NCBI RefSeq assembly: GCF_046105845.1
Contig: NZ_CP151004.1
Direction: 5' to 3' (one strand)
Length of the DNA stretch: 64,000 nucleotides
From: Escherichia coli
GTDB taxonomy: Bacteria > Pseudomonadota > Gammaproteobacteria > Enterobacterales > Enterobacteriaceae
The stretch's first letter is position 1. Every line of letters begins with the position of its first letter. Position numbers and translations under genes: made by a program. Positions 54,560 through 60,248 of this stretch are shown here, in pieces. Below the pieces are notes generated by a model, which was not told where the DNA came from, made no database searches, and saw nothing but the letters and a program-made list of their open reading frames with translations.

Positions 54560-57500
54560 TTACGCCTTCTCGATGTTTACTAAGAACGCTTTATATTCCG
54601 GCGTTTGCGAGTTTGCATCACCGACATTAGGCGTCAGAGTGTTAGCGATGTAACCTTTACGCGCGACACCCTCAAAGCCCCAGTGGATTGGAATACCCAC
54701 CGTTTCAACCTGCTGACCGTTTACATTCAGCGGCTTCAGACGGCGCGTTACCACAGCCACCGCGCGGATAAAACCACGCTTGCTGGAGACAGTGACACGA
54801 TCGCCATTATTAATGCCTTTCGCCGCCGCCAGCGTTTCGCTGATTTCCACAAACTGTTCCGGCTGAGCAATTGCGTTGAGCAACGCGTGCTTGGTCCAGG
54901 TGTGGAAGTGCTCGGTCAGACGATAGGTCGTACCCACATACGGGAACTGCTCTTTTTTACCCATCCGCAGCGCGTCTTGTTCATACAGACGAACCACCGG
55001 GTTAGACACCACGTTCGGATGCAGCGGGTTAGTGCCCAGCGGCGTTTCAATCGGCTCGTAGTGTTCCGGGAACGGACCTTCCGCCATTTTGTTGATGGCA
55101 AACAGGCGTCCCATCCCTTCCGGCTGCATGATAAACGGTCCGGTTAGTGTACCTGGCGCGGCATTGCCGAAGTCCGGAATATCGTTACCCGTCCACTTGC
55201 TGCCGTTCCACTGGATCAGCATCCGTTTCGGATCCCACGGTTTACCGTTGATATCCGCCGAAGCACGGTTGTACAGCACGCGACGGTTGAGCGGCCACGC
55301 CCAGGCCCATCCCAGCGTATTCCCCAGACCGGACGGGTCGGAGTTATCGCGGTTAGCCATCTGGTTGCCCTGCTCTGTCCAGCTACCAGTGTAGATCCAG
55401 CAAGAAGATGCGGTTGTACCGTCATCACGCAGATGCGCAAAGCTACTCAGCAACTGACCTTTCTTCGCAATCAGCACGCCATTAGCATCATAGAGATCTT
55501 CCAGCGCATAGCCGTTGTTCTCTTTAGCTACTTCGTCAGATTGCGGTTCGTGCGGCTGCTTGTAGTTCCAGCTCATCTTCATCAGCGGTTCTACGCCTTT
55601 GCCACCTTCGGCCTGGTACAACTCGCGCAGATGATGGTAGATACCCGCCAGAATTTCGCCGTCGTTACGCGCTTCGCCCGGCGCGTCCTGACCTTTCCAG
55701 TGCCACTGCAACCAGCGACCGGAGTTAGCGATAGAACCATCTTCTTCAGCAAAGCAGGTCGAAGGCAGACGGAATACTTCAGTCTGAATAGACGCCGGAT
55801 CGACATCGTTCGACTCGCCGTGGTTCTGCCAGAAGGTTGAGGTTTCAGTCACCAGCGGATCGATAACCACCATGTACTTCAGTTTGCTCAGGCAGCTCAC
55901 CACTTTGTTTTTGTCCGGGAAGGACGCAACCGGGTTAAAGCCCTGGCAGAAATAACCGGTGACTTTGCCTTCGTCCATCATGTTGAAATACTTGATGACG
56001 TCGTAGGTCTGGTCCCACTTCGGCAGCCAGTCGTAGCCCCAGTTGTTTTCTTTCTGCGCGGCATCGCCATAGAAAGATTTCATCAGGCTAACGAAGAACT
56101 TCGGATAGTTGCTCCAGTAGTTCACCTGATCAGCCAGCGTCGCTTTCGGCGTATTCGCTTCCAGATACGACTGCAAATCAACCTGTTTTTCTGACGGCAG
56201 CGTCAGATAACCCGGCAGGCTGGTTGAGAGCAGACCTAAGTCGGTCAGCCCCTGAATGTTGGAGTGACCACGCAATGCGTTCACGCCGCCACCGGCCATA
56301 CCCATGTTACCGAGCAGTAACTGGATCATCGCCATAGTACGGATGTTCTGCGCACCCACGGTGTGCTGCGTCCAGCCCAGCGCGTAAAGGAAGGTGGTTG
56401 TGCGATCCGGTGCGCTGGTGGAGGCCAGCACTTCACACACTTTCAGGAAGTCGGCTTTTGGCGTACCACAGATGTTTTCTACTACGTCCGGCGTGTAGCG
56501 GGAAACGTGCTCTTTCAGCAAGTTCCACACACAGCGCGGATGAGTCAGTGTTTCATCGCGTTTCGCATAGCCGTTTTCATCGAACTGATAGTTCCAGGAC
56601 GATTTATCGTATTGACGTTTTTCAGCGTCGTAGCCGCTGAACAGACCGTCTTCGAAAGCAAAATCATCACGCACCAGCAGACTGGCGTTGGTGTAATGCT
56701 TAACGTATTCGGCGTTGATTTTGTTGTTTTCGATCAGGTAGCGCAAAACGCCAGACAGGAACGTAATGTCCGTACCGGAACGAATAGGTGCGTAAATATC
56801 CGCTACAGAAGCGGTACGCGTAAAACGGGGATCGACAACGATCAAGGTTGCATCGTTGTTGTTTTTCGCTTCCATCGCCCAGCGGAAACCGACGGGATGC
56901 GCTTCAGCAGCGTTACCACCCATCACCATTACGACGTTAGCGTTTTTGATATCCACCCAGTGGTTGGTCATCGCACCGCGACCAAATGTTGGAGCAAGAC
57001 TTGCTACCGTTGGTCCGTGTCAGACGCGCGCCTGGTTGTCTACCGCCAGCATCCCGAGGGAGCGGGCAAATTTTTGAGTCAGCATCCCGGTTTCGTTGCT
57101 GGCACCGGAGGCACACAGCATACCGGTAGAAAGCCAACGGTTTACCGTTACGCCCTGCTCGTTCTTTTCAATAAAGTTAGCGTCACGGTCAGCTTTCATC
57201 AGCTTGGCAATACGGGAGAATGCTTCATCCCAGCTAATGCGCTGCCATTTATCAGAACCTGGCGCACGATATTCCGGGTAGCGCAGACGGTTTTCGCTGT
57301 TGACGTAATCCAGCAAACCGGCCCCTTTCGGGCACAGCGCACCACGGCTTACCGGATGATCCGGGTCACCTTCAATGTGATAAATCGCTTCTCTGGCGTT
57401 TTTCGCGCCATCACCCAGGCTATACATCAATAGCCCGCAACCTACGGAACAGTATGTGCAGGTGTTACGGATCTCTTTCGCGCGTAATAATTTATAGTTT

Positions 57501-57607
57501 CGCGCCTGAGCCAGTGCTTGCTTCGGGGCAAAGCCCAATGCCGCTACCGTTGTTCCAGCCATACCGCCCGCGCAGATTTTAAAAAATTGTCTGCGACTGA
57601 CGTCCAT
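54560..57607 (-). CDS. fdnG: Formate dehydrogenase-N alpha subunit, selenoprotein (Tat signal; in-frame UGA = Sec)
   Basis: Two ORF-track pieces (57020..57607 and 54560..56971) are one 1015-codon frame interrupted only by TGA at 57020..57022 (minus strand); N-terminus MDVSRRQFFK (twin-arginine); sequence continues …VDNQARV-U-HGPTVASLAPTFGRGAMTNHW…. Confidence 0.9.
56975..57019 (-). other. Predicted SECIS region immediately 3' of the fdnG UGA codon
   Basis: mRNA 3' of UGA reads CACGGACCAACGGUAGCAAGUCUUGCUCCAACAUUUGGUCGCGG with a short AGCAAG/CUUGCU hairpin; bacterial SECIS elements lie directly downstream of the Sec codon. Exact fold not computed. Confidence 0.5.
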
Positions 57608-57749: not shown

Positions 57750-57838
57750 AAAAACGCACCGCTGCCTGACAGGCCAGTTAAAAAAATGCTATAAAATTCA
57801 GCTTAATTTTTAACGGCAAGAGAGACAAAACAGCGAGC

Positions 57839-58720
57839 ATGACACGACAAAAAGCAACGCTCATAGGGCTAATAGCGATCGTCCTGTGGAGCACGATGGT
57901 AGGATTGATTCGCGGTGTCAGTGAGGGGCTCGGCCCGGTCGGCGGCGCAGCTGCTATCTATTCATTAAGCGGGCTGCTGTTAATCTTCACGGTTGGATTT
58001 CCGCGTATTCGGCAGATCCCGAAAGGCTATTTACTCGCCGGGTGTCTGTTATTCGTCAGCTATGAAATCTGTCTGGCGCTTTCCTTAGGATATGCGGCGA
58101 CCCGTCATCAGGCGATTGAAGTGGGTATGGTGAACTATCTGTGGCCCAGCCTGACAATTCTCTTTGCCATTCTGTTTAATGGTCAGAAAACCAACTGGCT
58201 GATTGTACCAGGATTATTATTAGCCCTGGTTGGCGTCTGCTGGGTGTTAGGTGGTGACAATGGATTACATTATGATGAAATCATCAATAATATCACCACC
58301 AGCCCATTGAGTTATTTCCTGTCGTTTATTGGTGCGTTTATCTGGGCAGCCTACTGCACAGTAACGAATAAATACGCACGCGGATTTAACGGAATTACCG
58401 TTTTTGTCCTGCTAACTGGAGCAAGTCTGTGGGTTTACTATTTTCTCACGCCACAACCAGAAATGGTATTTAGCACGCCAGTCATGATTAAACTCATCTC
58501 TGCGGCATTTACCTTAGGATTTGCTTATGCTGCATGGAACGTCGGTATATTACATGGCAACGTCACCATTATGGCGGTAGGTTCGTATTTTACGCCCGTC
58601 CTTTCCTCAGCGCTTGCAGCCGTGCTGCTCAGCGCCCCGCTGTCGTTCTCGTTCTGGCAAGGCGCGCTAATGGTCTGCGGCGGTTCCCTGCTCTGCTGGC
58701 TGGCGACACGTCGTGGCTAA
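57839..58720 (+). CDS. yddG: Aromatic amino acid exporter (DMT superfamily)
   Basis: 293-aa 10-TM protein MTRQKATLIGLIAIVLWSTMVGLIRG…; matches K-12 YddG. Confidence 0.95.
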   Translation: MTRQKATLIGLIAIVLWSTMVGLIRGVSEGLGPVGGAAAIYSLSGLLLIFTVGFPRIRQIPKGYLLAGCLLFVSYEICLALSLGYAATRHQAIEVGMVNYLWPSLTILFAILFNGQKTNWLIVPGLLLALVGVCWVLGGDNGLHYDEIINNITTSPLSYFLSFIGAFIWAAYCTVTNKYARGFNGITVFVLLTGASLWVYYFLTPQPEMVFSTPVMIKLISAAFTLGFAYAAWNVGILHGNVTIMAVGSYFTPVLSSALAAVLLSAPLSFSFWQGALMVCGGSLLCWLATRRG

Positions 58721-58978
58721 AATAATTGTCGGGTCTACGGCCCGGCAGTTAATCAGATAAATTCCGACAATATAAAAAAATAAATTTCAAATACCAGTAG
58801 TTCACCTTATATTTCATTTCGACTTCGATCACATATCGATAAATAATATTATTTCATCTATTTTTCTCATTGTTTTTAATCACCATTCTATTTTAAAAAC
58901 AGTATGTCATTTATAAATGACGCCGTTTAAAATTCGTTTAGAAAATACGTTTAACGATAATTAAAAGGATTCTGTTAA

Positions 58979-60079
58979 ATGAAATTAAAAATAGTTGCGG
59001 TGGTTGTAACTGGTTTGTTAGCTGCGAACGTAGCACACGCTGCCGAAGTCTATAACAAGGATGGTAATAAACTCGACCTTTATGGCAAGGTTACCGCTCT
59101 ACGTTATTTTACTGATGATAAGCGTGACGATGGTGATAAAACTTATGCCCGTCTCGGCTTTAAAGGAGAAACGCAAATCAATGATCAAATGATTGGTTTT
59201 GGTCACTGGGAATATGATTTTAAAGGCTATAACGATGAAGCCAACGGCTCGCGCGGTAACAAGACCCGTCTGGCCTATGCAGGTTTAAAAATTAGTGAAT
59301 TTGGCTCTCTGGACTATGGTCGTAACTACGGTGTCGGCTATGACATTGGTTCATGGACCGATATGTTGCCAGAATTTGGTGGCGATACCTGGAGTCAGAA
59401 AGATGTCTTCATGACATACCGTACTACCGGTGTGGCAACCTATCGCAACTACGATTTCTTCGGCTTAATTGAAGGTCTGAACTTTGCCGCGCAATATCAA
59501 GGCAAAAATGAACGCACTGACAATGGTCATCTTTATGGTGCTGACTACACGCGTGCCAATGGTGACGGTTTCGGTATCTCCTCAACTTATGTTTATGATG
59601 GCTTTGGTATCGGTGCGGTGTATACCAAATCCGATCGGACAAATGCGCAGGAAAGAGCCGCTGCTAATCCTCTCAATGCCTCCGGTAAGAATGCAGAACT
59701 GTGGGCTACAGGTATAAAATATGATGCCAACAACATCTACTTTGCAGCTAATTACGCTGAAACATTAAACATGACCACCTATGGCGATGGTTATATCTCT
59801 AACAAAGCACAAAGTTTTGAAGTAGTGGCACAATATCAATTCGACTTCGGCTTGCGCCCATCACTCGCTTACCTGAAATCGAAAGGCAGAGATCTGGGCC
59901 GCTACGGCGACCAGGACATGATTGAGTATATCGACGTTGGTGCGACGTATTTCTTCAACAAAAATATGTCGACCTATGTTGATTATAAAATCAACCTGAT
60001 TGATGAAAGCGACTTTACCCGTGCCGTAGATATTCGCACCGATAACATCGTCGCAACGGGCATTACCTATCAGTTCTAA
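58979..60079 (+). CDS. yddL: General bacterial porin, OmpC/OmpF/PhoE family (full length, 366 aa)
   Basis: Signal peptide [21 protein letters not shown] then [17 protein letters not shown]…, ends …GITYQF (C-terminal Phe); position matches yddL, which I recall as a fragment in K-12. Confidence 0.8.
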
Positions 60080-60091
60080 CATCCTCTCCTG

Positions 60092-60118
60092 ACCAGCCCT
60101 TCTCTGGGCTGGTTTTTG
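60092..60118 (+). terminator. Rho-independent terminator after porin gene
   Basis: ACCAGCCC-TTCTCT-GGGCTGGT followed by TTTTTGATTT. Confidence 0.85.
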
Positions 60119-60248
60119 ATTTAAGTGCTGCTGTATGACTCCTTAAGTAAAAATGAGCAATTTTTGATATTTCTGGTCATTCACCTCAATTAATATTATT
60201 CCATACCCTCCGGGGACATCTTACTATAATATTTATTGATGAGTGATT

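What the first reader, a model, noticed from the sequence alone, without database searches (positions are those of the whole stretch)
58979..60079. Intact extra OmpC/F-family porin
A 366-aa classical porin with signal peptide and C-terminal Phe sits between yddG and the LRR genes, with an AT-rich upstream region (58721-58978) and a strong terminator. From memory, the K-12 counterpart (yddL) is a fragment. An additional, probably silenced porin can matter for antibiotic permeability and phage receptor repertoire.
Basis: partly seen in the sequence, partly recalled or inferred. Interest (0 to 1): 0.35.

Follow-up and report, generated by a model that had tools for sequence, protein, structure and literature searches.

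The report
E. coli's own OmpD-type porin, intact
This is an ordinary, intact outer-membrane pore gene: the E. coli counterpart of Salmonella's major porin OmpD, kept whole in about a fifth of E. coli genomes, cut down to the yddL stub in K-12, and apparently expressed only weakly.

Summary
Window 58979-60079 (+) is an uninterrupted 366-aa classical porin. It has a signal peptide, the PEFGG loop-3 motif, every constriction residue and a C-terminal Phe. Upstream lies a 258-bp, 27% GC region, and a hairpin terminator follows.

It is not OmpC, although RefSeq calls it that. It is 62% identical to K-12 OmpC and OmpN, 61% to OmpF and 59% to PhoE. It is 74% identical to Salmonella OmpD and 78% to a Citrobacter koseri porin. 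Those two genes, and an IS1-broken E. albertii copy, occupy the same fdnGHI-yddG-porin slot. Their upstream DNA aligns with this one, so the gene is the positional orthologue of OmpD.

K-12 yddL is its first 93 codons, left by a 1.54-kb deletion. Of 5,426 complete E. coli genomes, 1,101 hold the whole gene, about 3,150 only the stub, and about 1,150 nothing.

dN/dS of 0.02-0.09 shows purifying selection. Codon bias is weak (ENC 51, against 34 for Salmonella ompD) and the MicC pairing site is lost. This fits low or conditional expression.

The gene is already published as Z2239 of O157 O-island 62, so interest is low.

The parts
58721..58978 (+). yddG-porin intergenic region: promoter plus 5' leader. 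27% GC. Homologous to the Salmonella and Citrobacter ompD upstream region over about 160 nt.
   Evidence: Composition. Seven-sequence alignment.
58818..58833 (+). Candidate CRP-like site TTCGACTTCGATCACA (8 of 10 consensus positions). The TCACA half is conserved in E. albertii and Salmonella. Its centre is about -80.5 from the inferred start site.
   Evidence: Inference only; binding was not tested.
58870..58899 (+). Inferred sigma-70 promoter: -35 TTGTTT (58870-58875), 18-nt spacer, -10 TAAAAA (58894-58899). It aligns with Salmonella TTGAAC-18-TAAAAA.
   Evidence: using the published Salmonella ompD start at -69 (PMC3333887). Inferred by alignment, not mapped experimentally.
58906..58978 (+). 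Inferred 5' UTR of about 73 nt. The start site is aligned to the Salmonella +1. The Shine-Dalgarno sequence AAGGA lies at 58965-58969.
58979..59041 (+). Signal peptide, 21 aa, [21 protein letters not shown].
   Evidence: the mature N-terminus [10 protein letters not shown] aligns with all reference porins.
58979..60079 (+). Porin coding sequence, 366 aa plus stop. OmpD-type general-diffusion porin.
59369..59383 (+). PEFGG motif of constriction loop L3 (residues 131-135).
59417..59419 (+). Tyr147 (mature residue 126). It sits at the position of PhoE Lys125. That position is Gly or Gln in OmpD, NmpC, OmpF and OmpC, and Tyr only in the E. coli and E. albertii copies.
59257..60794 (+). The 1.54-kb stretch missing from K-12. 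Its loss leaves yddL (porin codons 1-93 plus 3 foreign codons) joined to the middle of the first LRR gene.
60091..60120 (+). Intrinsic-terminator-like hairpin GACCAGCCC-loop-GGGCTGGTT followed by a T run. It separates the porin from the LRR genes.

Best explanation
The gene encodes a classical trimeric general-diffusion porin. It is the Escherichia positional orthologue of OmpD, the major porin of Salmonella, which is also functionally important in Enterobacter hormaechei.

It was inherited vertically in the fdnGHI-yddG-porin-narU neighbourhood. It has since been lost repeatedly within E. coli: by a 1.54-kb deletion that leaves the yddL stub in K-12-like strains, by loss of the whole island in B2-like strains, and by occasional IS insertions.

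Where it is intact, the product should be exported by Sec, assembled by BAM through its C-terminal Phe signal, and form a water-filled 16-strand barrel. The eyelet should be the standard basic ladder (K, R, R, R) facing the acidic L3 loop, letting small hydrophilic solutes through, including beta-lactams.

Unlike Salmonella OmpD, the E. coli copy behaves as a minor, conditionally expressed porin. It has lost the codon bias of a major porin, sits behind a very AT-rich promoter with a weaker -35 element, and has lost the MicC pairing site.

Shown here: an intact gene, family membership, orthology by synteny and by upstream homology, the deletion map, population frequencies, purifying selection and weak codon bias. 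Inferred: pore function, the start site and promoter, the low expression level, and any H-NS or CRP control.
For: Family membership. Porin_1 matches over the full length. The protein aligns end to end with solved OmpC and OmpK36 chains at 428 bits. K16, R42, R82, R132, D113, E117, D121 and PEFGG are all conserved.

Orthology. Salmonella OmpD and the C. koseri 78% homologue both lie in the order fdnIHG(-), yddG(+), porin(+), then narU and narZ. E. albertii has the same gene after yddG. E. hormaechei ompD is also adjacent to yddG (PMC11874173). Identity is 74-78% to these genes against 59-62% to K-12 OmpC, OmpF, PhoE and OmpN. In an NJ tree the split from the four K-12 porins has 87% bootstrap support. 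The upstream 160 nt, the ribosome-binding site and the -10 element align with Salmonella ompD. Silent-site divergence matches the neighbouring yddG: 0.079 against 0.071 within E. coli, and saturated for both against Salmonella.

Selection. dN/dS is 0.044, 0.042 and 0.090 between E. coli alleles, and 0.02 against E. albertii. In an evenly spread sample of 60 carrier genomes, 59 are annotated as intact.

Low expression. ENC is 51.4, against 34.5 for Salmonella ompD, 33.6 for C. koseri, 29.0 for ompC and 37.1 for ompF. The upstream region is 27% GC. The -35 element is TTGTTT against TTGAAC in Salmonella. The MicC seed duplex is -6.8 kcal/mol against -15.8 in Salmonella. Only 2 peptide hits were reported in an O157 proteome.
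Against: No expression or channel data exist for this strain. The two O157 peptide hits could be peptides shared with other porins. The promoter and start site are inferred by alignment only. The window porin sits on a long branch, and its grouping with the C. koseri gene has only 73% bootstrap support; relationships inside the OmpD/NmpC/Lc group are poorly resolved. Okeke et al. (PMC3079680) read the whole island as recently acquired because of its low GC content. The AlphaFold model was of low confidence (pLDDT 61) and adds nothing.
Confidence: 0.85

Rival explanations
1. The porin is part of a recently acquired genomic island (O-island 62) brought in by horizontal transfer together with the LRR genes, rather than an ancestral gene.
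For: Okeke et al. 2011 proposed this from the 33-36% GC of the island. The LRR genes here are 33-35% GC. The porin is 44% GC, below its Salmonella and Citrobacter orthologues at 50%. The island is patchily distributed.
Against: The same gene occupies the same slot next to yddG in Salmonella, C. koseri and E. albertii, and the upstream regions are homologous. Silent divergence equals that of the flanking core gene yddG. A strong terminator separates the porin from the LRR genes, and GC content steps down only after the porin. The patchy distribution is explained by mapped deletions. Acquisition probably applies to the LRR genes, which replace GFA-smvA-smvR, but not to the porin.
Confidence: 0.08
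2. The gene is a silent relic on its way to becoming a pseudogene. It is intact by chance in this strain and makes no contribution to the cell.
For: It has been lost independently several times: the K-12-type deletion, the B2-type deletion, an IS3 insertion in ETEC6334 and an IS1 insertion in E. albertii. Codon bias is weak, the promoter is AT-rich, and no phenotype has been reported.
Against: dN/dS of 0.02-0.09 over divergences up to the E. coli-E. albertii split shows sustained purifying selection on the protein. Of 60 carriers sampled at even steps, 59 are annotated as intact. All pore-lining residues are conserved. Two peptide hits were reported in O157.
Confidence: 0.08
3. It is simply an OmpC allele or duplicate, as the RefSeq name 'porin OmpC' implies.
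For: The NCBIfam 'porin OmpC' subfamily model scores 495 bits against a cut-off of 484. The best PDB matches are OmpC and OmpK36.
Against: It is only 62% identical to K-12 OmpC. It sits at a different locus, whereas canonical ompC lies next to micF and rcsD and is present in 5,362 of 5,426 genomes. It separates from OmpC in the tree with 87% support. It has Lys at the OmpF K80 position, like OmpD and OmpF, where OmpC and OmpN have Trp.
Confidence: 0.02
4. Its main role is not diffusion. Instead it acts as a surface adhesin or receptor linked to the neighbouring EspR-type LRR effector genes, as Kudva et al. proposed when listing it as a putative adhesin.
For: [quoted passage not shown] It is kept or lost together with the LRR genes. 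The few amino-acid differences between alleles fall at residues 48, 93, 183 and 304.
Against: There are no experimental data. It is a separate transcription unit with its own terminator. Co-loss is explained by a single deletion spanning both. The pore architecture is fully conserved. Porins commonly serve as receptors as a by-product.
Confidence: 0.05

Closest known systems
Salmonella enterica OmpD (STM1572), and OmpD of Enterobacter hormaechei
   Same: Same chromosomal slot downstream of yddG and fdnGHI. 74% identity. Homologous promoter, 5' UTR, ribosome-binding site and signal peptide. Identical constriction residues.
   Different: Weak codon bias: ENC 51 against 34.5. The MicC target site in codons 23-26 is disrupted. 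The -35 element is weaker. Tyr replaces Gly at the PhoE-K125 position. There is an 8-residue insertion in the loop after QGKNER and a 5-residue deletion in the TYGDG loop. The downstream neighbours are LRR genes instead of GFA-smvA-smvR. The gene is polymorphic for presence within the species.
E. coli K-12 YddL (b1472)
   Same: The promoter and the first 93 codons are the same sequence: 97.7% nucleotide identity over window 57800-59256, with an identical N-terminal protein sequence.
   Different: YddL is a 96-aa truncation created by a 1.54-kb deletion that joins the porin to the first LRR gene. It cannot form a barrel.
E. coli O157:H7 Z2239 (O-island 62) and EAEC 042 orf1601
   Same: The same gene. 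97.8% nucleotide identity and 3 amino-acid differences from the O157 allele. The 3' 780 nt are 100% identical to strain 042.
   Different: Only allelic differences. Published mentions are as a 'putative outer membrane porin' (PMC3420319) or as an unnamed ORF (PMC3079680).
NmpC / Lc prophage porins (DLP12, PA-2)
   Same: Same broad OmpD/NmpC/Lc clade, 68-69% identity. The literature treats NmpC as the E. coli counterpart of OmpD (PMC3333887).
   Different: Those are prophage-borne, have different signal peptides and sit at different loci. The gene here is the syntenic chromosomal copy.
E. coli OmpC, OmpF, PhoE, OmpN
   Same: Same Pfam family and the same eyelet chemistry.
   Different: 59-62% identity, different loci, and separated in the tree with 87% support.

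Membership tests
Classical enterobacterial general porins (Pfam PF00267 Porin_1; OmpC/OmpF/PhoE type) | Full-length Porin_1 domain | tested here: met
   Residues 27-366 match profile positions 1-337 of 337, 448.6 bits.
Classical enterobacterial general porins (Pfam PF00267 Porin_1; OmpC/OmpF/PhoE type) | Cleavable Sec signal peptide and conserved mature N-terminus AE(V/I)YNKDGNK | tested here: met
   [21 protein letters not shown] followed by [10 protein letters not shown], aligned with all reference porins. Based on alignment; no signal-peptide predictor was run.
Classical enterobacterial general porins (Pfam PF00267 Porin_1; OmpC/OmpF/PhoE type) | C-terminal aromatic residue (Phe) of the assembly signal | tested here: met
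   The protein ends in ...GITYQF.
Classical enterobacterial general porins (Pfam PF00267 Porin_1; OmpC/OmpF/PhoE type) | L3 constriction loop with PEFGG, acidic D113/E117/D121, and the opposing basic ladder K16/R42/R82/R132 (OmpF numbering) | tested here: met
   All of these residues are conserved in the alignment.
Classical enterobacterial general porins (Pfam PF00267 Porin_1; OmpC/OmpF/PhoE type) | 16-stranded beta-barrel that forms trimers | tested here: inconclusive
   The AlphaFold2 model built from a 19-sequence alignment reached only pLDDT 60.9. The fold is inferred instead from about 62% full-length identity to solved OmpC and OmpK36 structures.
Classical enterobacterial general porins (Pfam PF00267 Porin_1; OmpC/OmpF/PhoE type) | Non-specific diffusion channel activity | not testable with these tools
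   Needs bilayer conductance or liposome swelling measurements.
OmpD orthologue group (Salmonella / Enterobacter OmpD) | Chromosomal position directly downstream of yddG, opposite fdnGHI, on the narU-narZ side | tested here: met
   Window gene order compared with Salmonella, C. koseri and E. albertii; E. hormaechei from PMC11874173.
OmpD orthologue group (Salmonella / Enterobacter OmpD) | Closer in sequence to OmpD than to OmpC, OmpF, PhoE or OmpN | tested here: met
   74-78% against 59-62% identity; 87% bootstrap support for the split.
OmpD orthologue group (Salmonella / Enterobacter OmpD) | Homologous promoter and 5' UTR | tested here: met
   Alignable for about 160 nt upstream, with a conserved -10 element, ribosome-binding site and TCACA half-site.
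OmpD orthologue group (Salmonella / Enterobacter OmpD) | Signature of a major, highly expressed porin (strong codon bias) | tested here: not met
   ENC 51.4 against 34.5 (Salmonella) and 33.6 (C. koseri). This concerns expression level, not ancestry.
OmpD orthologue group (Salmonella / Enterobacter OmpD) | MicC seed-pairing site in codons 23-26 | tested here: not met
   Duplex energy is -6.8 kcal/mol for the window and O157 and -4.0 for E. albertii, against -15.8 for Salmonella and -15.7 for C. koseri.
OmpD orthologue group (Salmonella / Enterobacter OmpD) | Activation by cAMP-CRP; repression by RybB, SdsR and InvR | not tested
   Only a candidate CRP-like site was found, 8 of 10 positions, centred at -80.5. 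The RybB, SdsR and InvR sites were not examined.
OmpC proper (the RefSeq/PGAP label) | Locus adjacent to micF and rcsD | tested here: not met
   K-12 ompC lies beside micF and rcsD. This gene lies beside yddG. The canonical ompC-micF region is present separately in 5,362 of 5,426 genomes.
OmpC proper (the RefSeq/PGAP label) | Score above the cut-off of the NCBIfam 'porin OmpC' model | tested here: met
   495.3 bits against a cut-off of 484. This is a subfamily-level model, not an equivalog.
OmpC proper (the RefSeq/PGAP label) | Clusters with OmpC in a porin tree | tested here: not met
   Separated from K-12 OmpC and OmpN.
Quiescent / H-NS-silenced porins (OmpS1, OmpS2, OmpN type) | AT-rich regulatory region and low codon adaptation | tested here: met
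   27% GC upstream; ENC 51.4.
Quiescent / H-NS-silenced porins (OmpS1, OmpS2, OmpN type) | Demonstrated H-NS binding and derepression in hns mutants | not testable with these tools
   Needs ChIP and expression data from a strain carrying the intact gene.

The most novel reading that the evidence does not exclude
In Escherichia the ancestral major porin OmpD may have been converted into a low-level, conditionally expressed porin with an altered eyelet. A bulky Tyr sits at the position of the PhoE selectivity residue Lys125, and MicC control has been lost. The presence, truncation or absence of this gene (about 20%, 58% and 21% of genomes) would then be an unrecognised determinant of antibiotic permeability and of phage or colicin susceptibility in phylogroup D, E and F pathogens. 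It would also follow that the usual equation of E. coli NmpC with Salmonella OmpD is wrong.
Probability: 0.2. Interest if true: 0.45.

Novelty: already known. Interest (0 to 1): 0.22.

Why it matters
Mostly this is housekeeping. The gene is annotated in over a thousand complete genomes, under the misleading name 'porin OmpC'. It has been mentioned in the literature as Z2239 of O-island 62.

Three points are useful:

- The true E. coli counterpart of Salmonella OmpD is this yddG-linked gene, of which K-12 yddL is the remnant. It is not prophage nmpC, as sRNA and porin papers assume.
- K-12 yddL-yddK-yddJ is a product of deletion, not insertion.
- About one E. coli genome in five, including O157:H7, EAEC 042 and CE10, carries a fourth intact classical porin under purifying selection. 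Porin-loss resistance studies and phage-receptor screens built on K-12 ignore it.

Tried and rejected
- **Bootstrapping.** The Biopython bootstrap timed out. A first support calculation was invalid for deep nodes because the bootstrap trees were not rooted consistently. It was replaced by split-based counting.
- **Structure prediction.** The AlphaFold2 model from a 19-sequence alignment was of low confidence (pLDDT 61). It was not used and no fold search was run.
- **Literature.** Searches for locus tags (ECs2074, ECs2076, EC042_1601) found nothing on the porin. The ECs2073-2075 hits concern the neighbouring EspR genes. E. coli 'OmpD' hits in the literature refer to NmpC or Lc, or to database labels, not to this locus.
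- **RNA families.** An Rfam scan of 58500-60400 found only a chance miRNA hit at E = 0.37.
- **Promoter scan.** The generic scan gave 10 sites against 4.9 expected and was uninformative on its own. The alignment-based inference was preferred.
- **Palindrome.** The 16-bp perfect palindrome GTCATTTATAAATGAC was considered as an operator. It is imperfect in O157 and E. albertii and corresponds to the start of the Salmonella 5' UTR, so it was not claimed as one.
- **Not examined.** RybB, SdsR and InvR pairing was not analysed, because their sequences were not retrieved with the tools.
- **Not run.** The costly genome contigs and metagenome scans were skipped. Four genera already gave the synteny answer.

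Full report

Yes. The ORF listing gives a single uninterrupted ORF at 58979..60079 (+) of 366 aa. It matches Pfam Porin_1 over the whole profile at E = 2e-134. It aligns end to end with solved OmpC, OmpK36, OmpF and PhoE chains.

The protein starts with a typical signal peptide, [21 protein letters not shown], followed by [10 protein letters not shown]. It ends in YQF. The 258 bp between the yddG stop and the ATG are 27% GC. A 9-pair hairpin (6 G-C pairs) at 60091-60114 is followed by a T run.

Upstream lies an EamA-family gene (yddG), and beyond it fdnG on the other strand. Downstream lie two LRR genes.

**2. What is it?**

NCBIfam places it just above the cut-off of the subfamily model 'porin OmpC' (495 against 484 bits) and well below the OmpF and PhoE equivalog cut-offs. 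This explains why RefSeq annotates it as 'ompC'. It is nevertheless not OmpC.

- Identity to the K-12 porins is 62% (OmpC), 61% (OmpF), 59% (PhoE) and 62% (OmpN).
- Identity is 74% to Salmonella OmpD, 78% to a Citrobacter koseri porin, 73-75% to Enterobacter, Lelliottia and Intestinirhabdus porins, and 68-69% to prophage NmpC and Lc.
- In a neighbour-joining tree with 500 bootstrap replicates counted as splits, it separates from the four K-12 porins with 87% support. Its nearest neighbour is the C. koseri gene, at 73% support. Branching inside the OmpD/NmpC/Lc group is weak.
- Canonical ompC-micF is present at its own locus in 5,362 of 5,426 complete genomes. This porin is therefore additional.

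**3. Synteny shows it is the orthologue of OmpD.**

The contigs that encode Salmonella OmpD and the C. koseri homologue both read fdnI-fdnH-fdnG (-), yddG (+), porin (+), GFA-domain gene, smvA, smvR, narU, narZ. The window reads fdnG (-), yddG (+), porin (+), LRR, LRR, narU. An E. albertii genome has the same porin after yddG, broken by IS1. In Enterobacter hormaechei a natural deletion 'disrupts yddG and ompD' (PMC11874173).

The similarity extends outside the coding region. About 160 nt upstream of the ATG align between Escherichia, Salmonella and Citrobacter, including the ribosome-binding site and an A-rich block.

Silent-site divergence of the porin matches that of the neighbouring core gene yddG. 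Within E. coli it is 0.079 against 0.071, and against Salmonella both are saturated.

Together this indicates vertical inheritance of the porin. The LRR genes are 33-35% GC and have replaced GFA-smvA-smvR, so they are the part that looks acquired. The sRNA literature treats prophage nmpC as the E. coli counterpart of ompD (PMC3333887). By position, the counterpart is this gene.

**4. Relation to K-12 and to the population.**

The reverse complement of the K-12 region aligns to the window in three blocks. These are 57800-59256 (97.7% identity), 60795-61126 and 61769-64000. K-12 therefore lacks two stretches:

- Window 59257-60794. This runs from porin codon 94 onward, through the terminator, to the 5' half of the first LRR gene.
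- Window 61127-61768. This deletion fuses the two LRR genes, across the short shared sequence ATTGATTTATC, into what is annotated as yddK.

YddL is porin residues 1-93 plus Lys-Asn-Leu. The locus is a deletion remnant. It is not an island 'disrupted by insertion of yddK', as suggested in PMC3079680.

Among 5,426 complete genomes:

- 1,118 carry the 3' 780 nt of the porin, and 1,101 of these carry it essentially complete.
- 4,271 carry the promoter and 5' end. About 3,150 therefore have only the stub.
- About 1,150 have neither. One example is APEC O1:K1:H7, where yddG abuts narU.

Carriers include O157:H7, O145, EAEC 042, CE10 and several ETEC strains. In an evenly spread sample of 60 carriers, 59 are annotated as an intact CDS. 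One ETEC copy is split by an IS3 element at codon 255.

**5. Is it functional?**

All residues that define the eyelet of general porins are conserved. These are K16, R42, R82, R132, D113, E117 and D121 in OmpF numbering, plus PEFGG, Y102 and Y106.

dN/dS is 0.044 and 0.042 between the window allele and two divergent E. coli alleles, 0.09 between those two, and 0.02 against E. albertii over 280 codons. Such ratios are not expected of a permanently silent gene.

One lineage-specific change is notable. The position of PhoE Lys125 is Gly or Gln in OmpD, NmpC, OmpF and OmpC, but Tyr in the E. coli and E. albertii copies. From prior knowledge (Bauer et al. 1989), PhoE Lys125 is the anion-selectivity determinant. 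A narrower or altered constriction is a reasonable but untested inference.

**6. How strongly is it expressed?**

The evidence is indirect and points to low or conditional expression.

- ENC is 51.4, as unbiased as yddG at 50.6. The orthologues in Salmonella and C. koseri score 34.5 and 33.6. K-12 ompC, ompF, ompN and phoE score 29.0, 37.1, 40.4 and 46.3.
- The published Salmonella start site (-69, PMC3333887) aligns to window 58906. The -10 element TAAAAA is conserved. The -35 element is TTGTTT against TTGAAC in Salmonella.
- A CRP-like sequence with a conserved TCACA half lies at about -80 in E. coli, E. albertii and Salmonella. This is a candidate only.
- The 12-bp MicC seed site in codons 23-26 of Salmonella and C. 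koseri ompD (-15.8 kcal/mol) is broken by two substitutions in the Escherichia genes (-6.8 and -4.0).
- The only direct expression evidence found is two peptide hits for Z2239 in an O157 DMEM proteome (PMC3420319). These could be peptides shared with other porins.
- H-NS silencing is plausible given the 27% GC promoter, but it was not tested.

**7. What is known already?**

The gene is Z2239 of EDL933 O-island 62 and orf1601 of EAEC 042 (PMC3079680). It is listed as a 'putative outer membrane porin' under evaluation as an adhesin (PMC3420319). Its K-12 fragment yddL was recently discussed as an uncharacterised beta-barrel fragment (PMC9976479). No functional study of the intact E. coli protein was found in the searchable library. 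I found no paper that states the OmpD orthology.

**8. Verdict.**

This is an ordinary member of the best-known porin family, already annotated and already noted in the literature. It is not a new kind of system.

The added value is a sharper identity and history:

- It is the positional OmpD orthologue.
- yddL is its deletion remnant.
- There is a clear presence/absence polymorphism with purifying selection on the intact copies.
- It carries signs of demotion to a minor porin.

Interest is low, at about 0.2. The most novel reading still open is a functionally diverged, clinically relevant fourth porin. That reading needs expression and channel measurements.

Noticed in passing
window 60243-61508 and 61550-62827 (+): Two low-GC (33-35%) LRR genes of 421 and 425 aa. 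They correspond to the EspR2/EspR1 family, annotated in O157 as T3SS effector LRR proteins. They give weak partial LRR matches to SlrP, internalin and XopAC models. The first is one intact ORF here (as described for EAEC 042 orf1600), whereas it is split or frameshifted in O157 and annotated only as a fragment in strain 118UI. In Escherichia these genes occupy the place of GFA-smvA-smvR.
   Followed up: partly
window 61127-61768 against K-12 (L011): K-12 yddK appears to be a chimera made by a 642-bp deletion between the two LRR genes across the short shared sequence ATTGATTTATC. yddJ is the 3' remainder of the second LRR gene.
   Followed up: partly
window 60080-62900: The LRR region is at best 98.3% identical to any complete E. 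coli genome. The adjacent porin region (58721-60240) is 100% identical to strain 118UI. This suggests a mosaic or recombinant island, or a strain not represented among the complete genomes.
   Followed up: no
window 54560-57607 (-): fdnG appears as two ORFs (803 aa and 195 aa) separated by an in-frame stop. This is the expected TGA selenocysteine codon of formate dehydrogenase-N, and RefSeq annotates a single 1,015-aa product.
   Followed up: no
window 58906-58921: A perfect 16-bp palindrome, GTCATTTATAAATGAC, begins exactly at the inferred transcription start. It has one mismatch in O157, differs in E. albertii, and corresponds to GCCATTGACAAAC in Salmonella. Its significance is unknown.
   Followed up: partly
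protein P0001 (metagenome contig, 2.1 kb): A 365-aa porin whose first ~100 residues differ from the window porin (signal peptide MKRKVLAMLVPALLVAGAANA, closest by eye to OmpC/OmpN) and whose remainder is nearly identical to the window porin. It is either a natural recombinant between porin paralogues or an assembly chimera.
   Followed up: no
L016 5137-7014 (E. albertii) and L015 4759-7195 (ETEC6334): Independent IS disruptions of the same porin: IS1 in E. albertii, and an IS3-family element at codon 255 in a porcine ETEC strain. These add to the picture of recurrent loss.
   Followed up: partly
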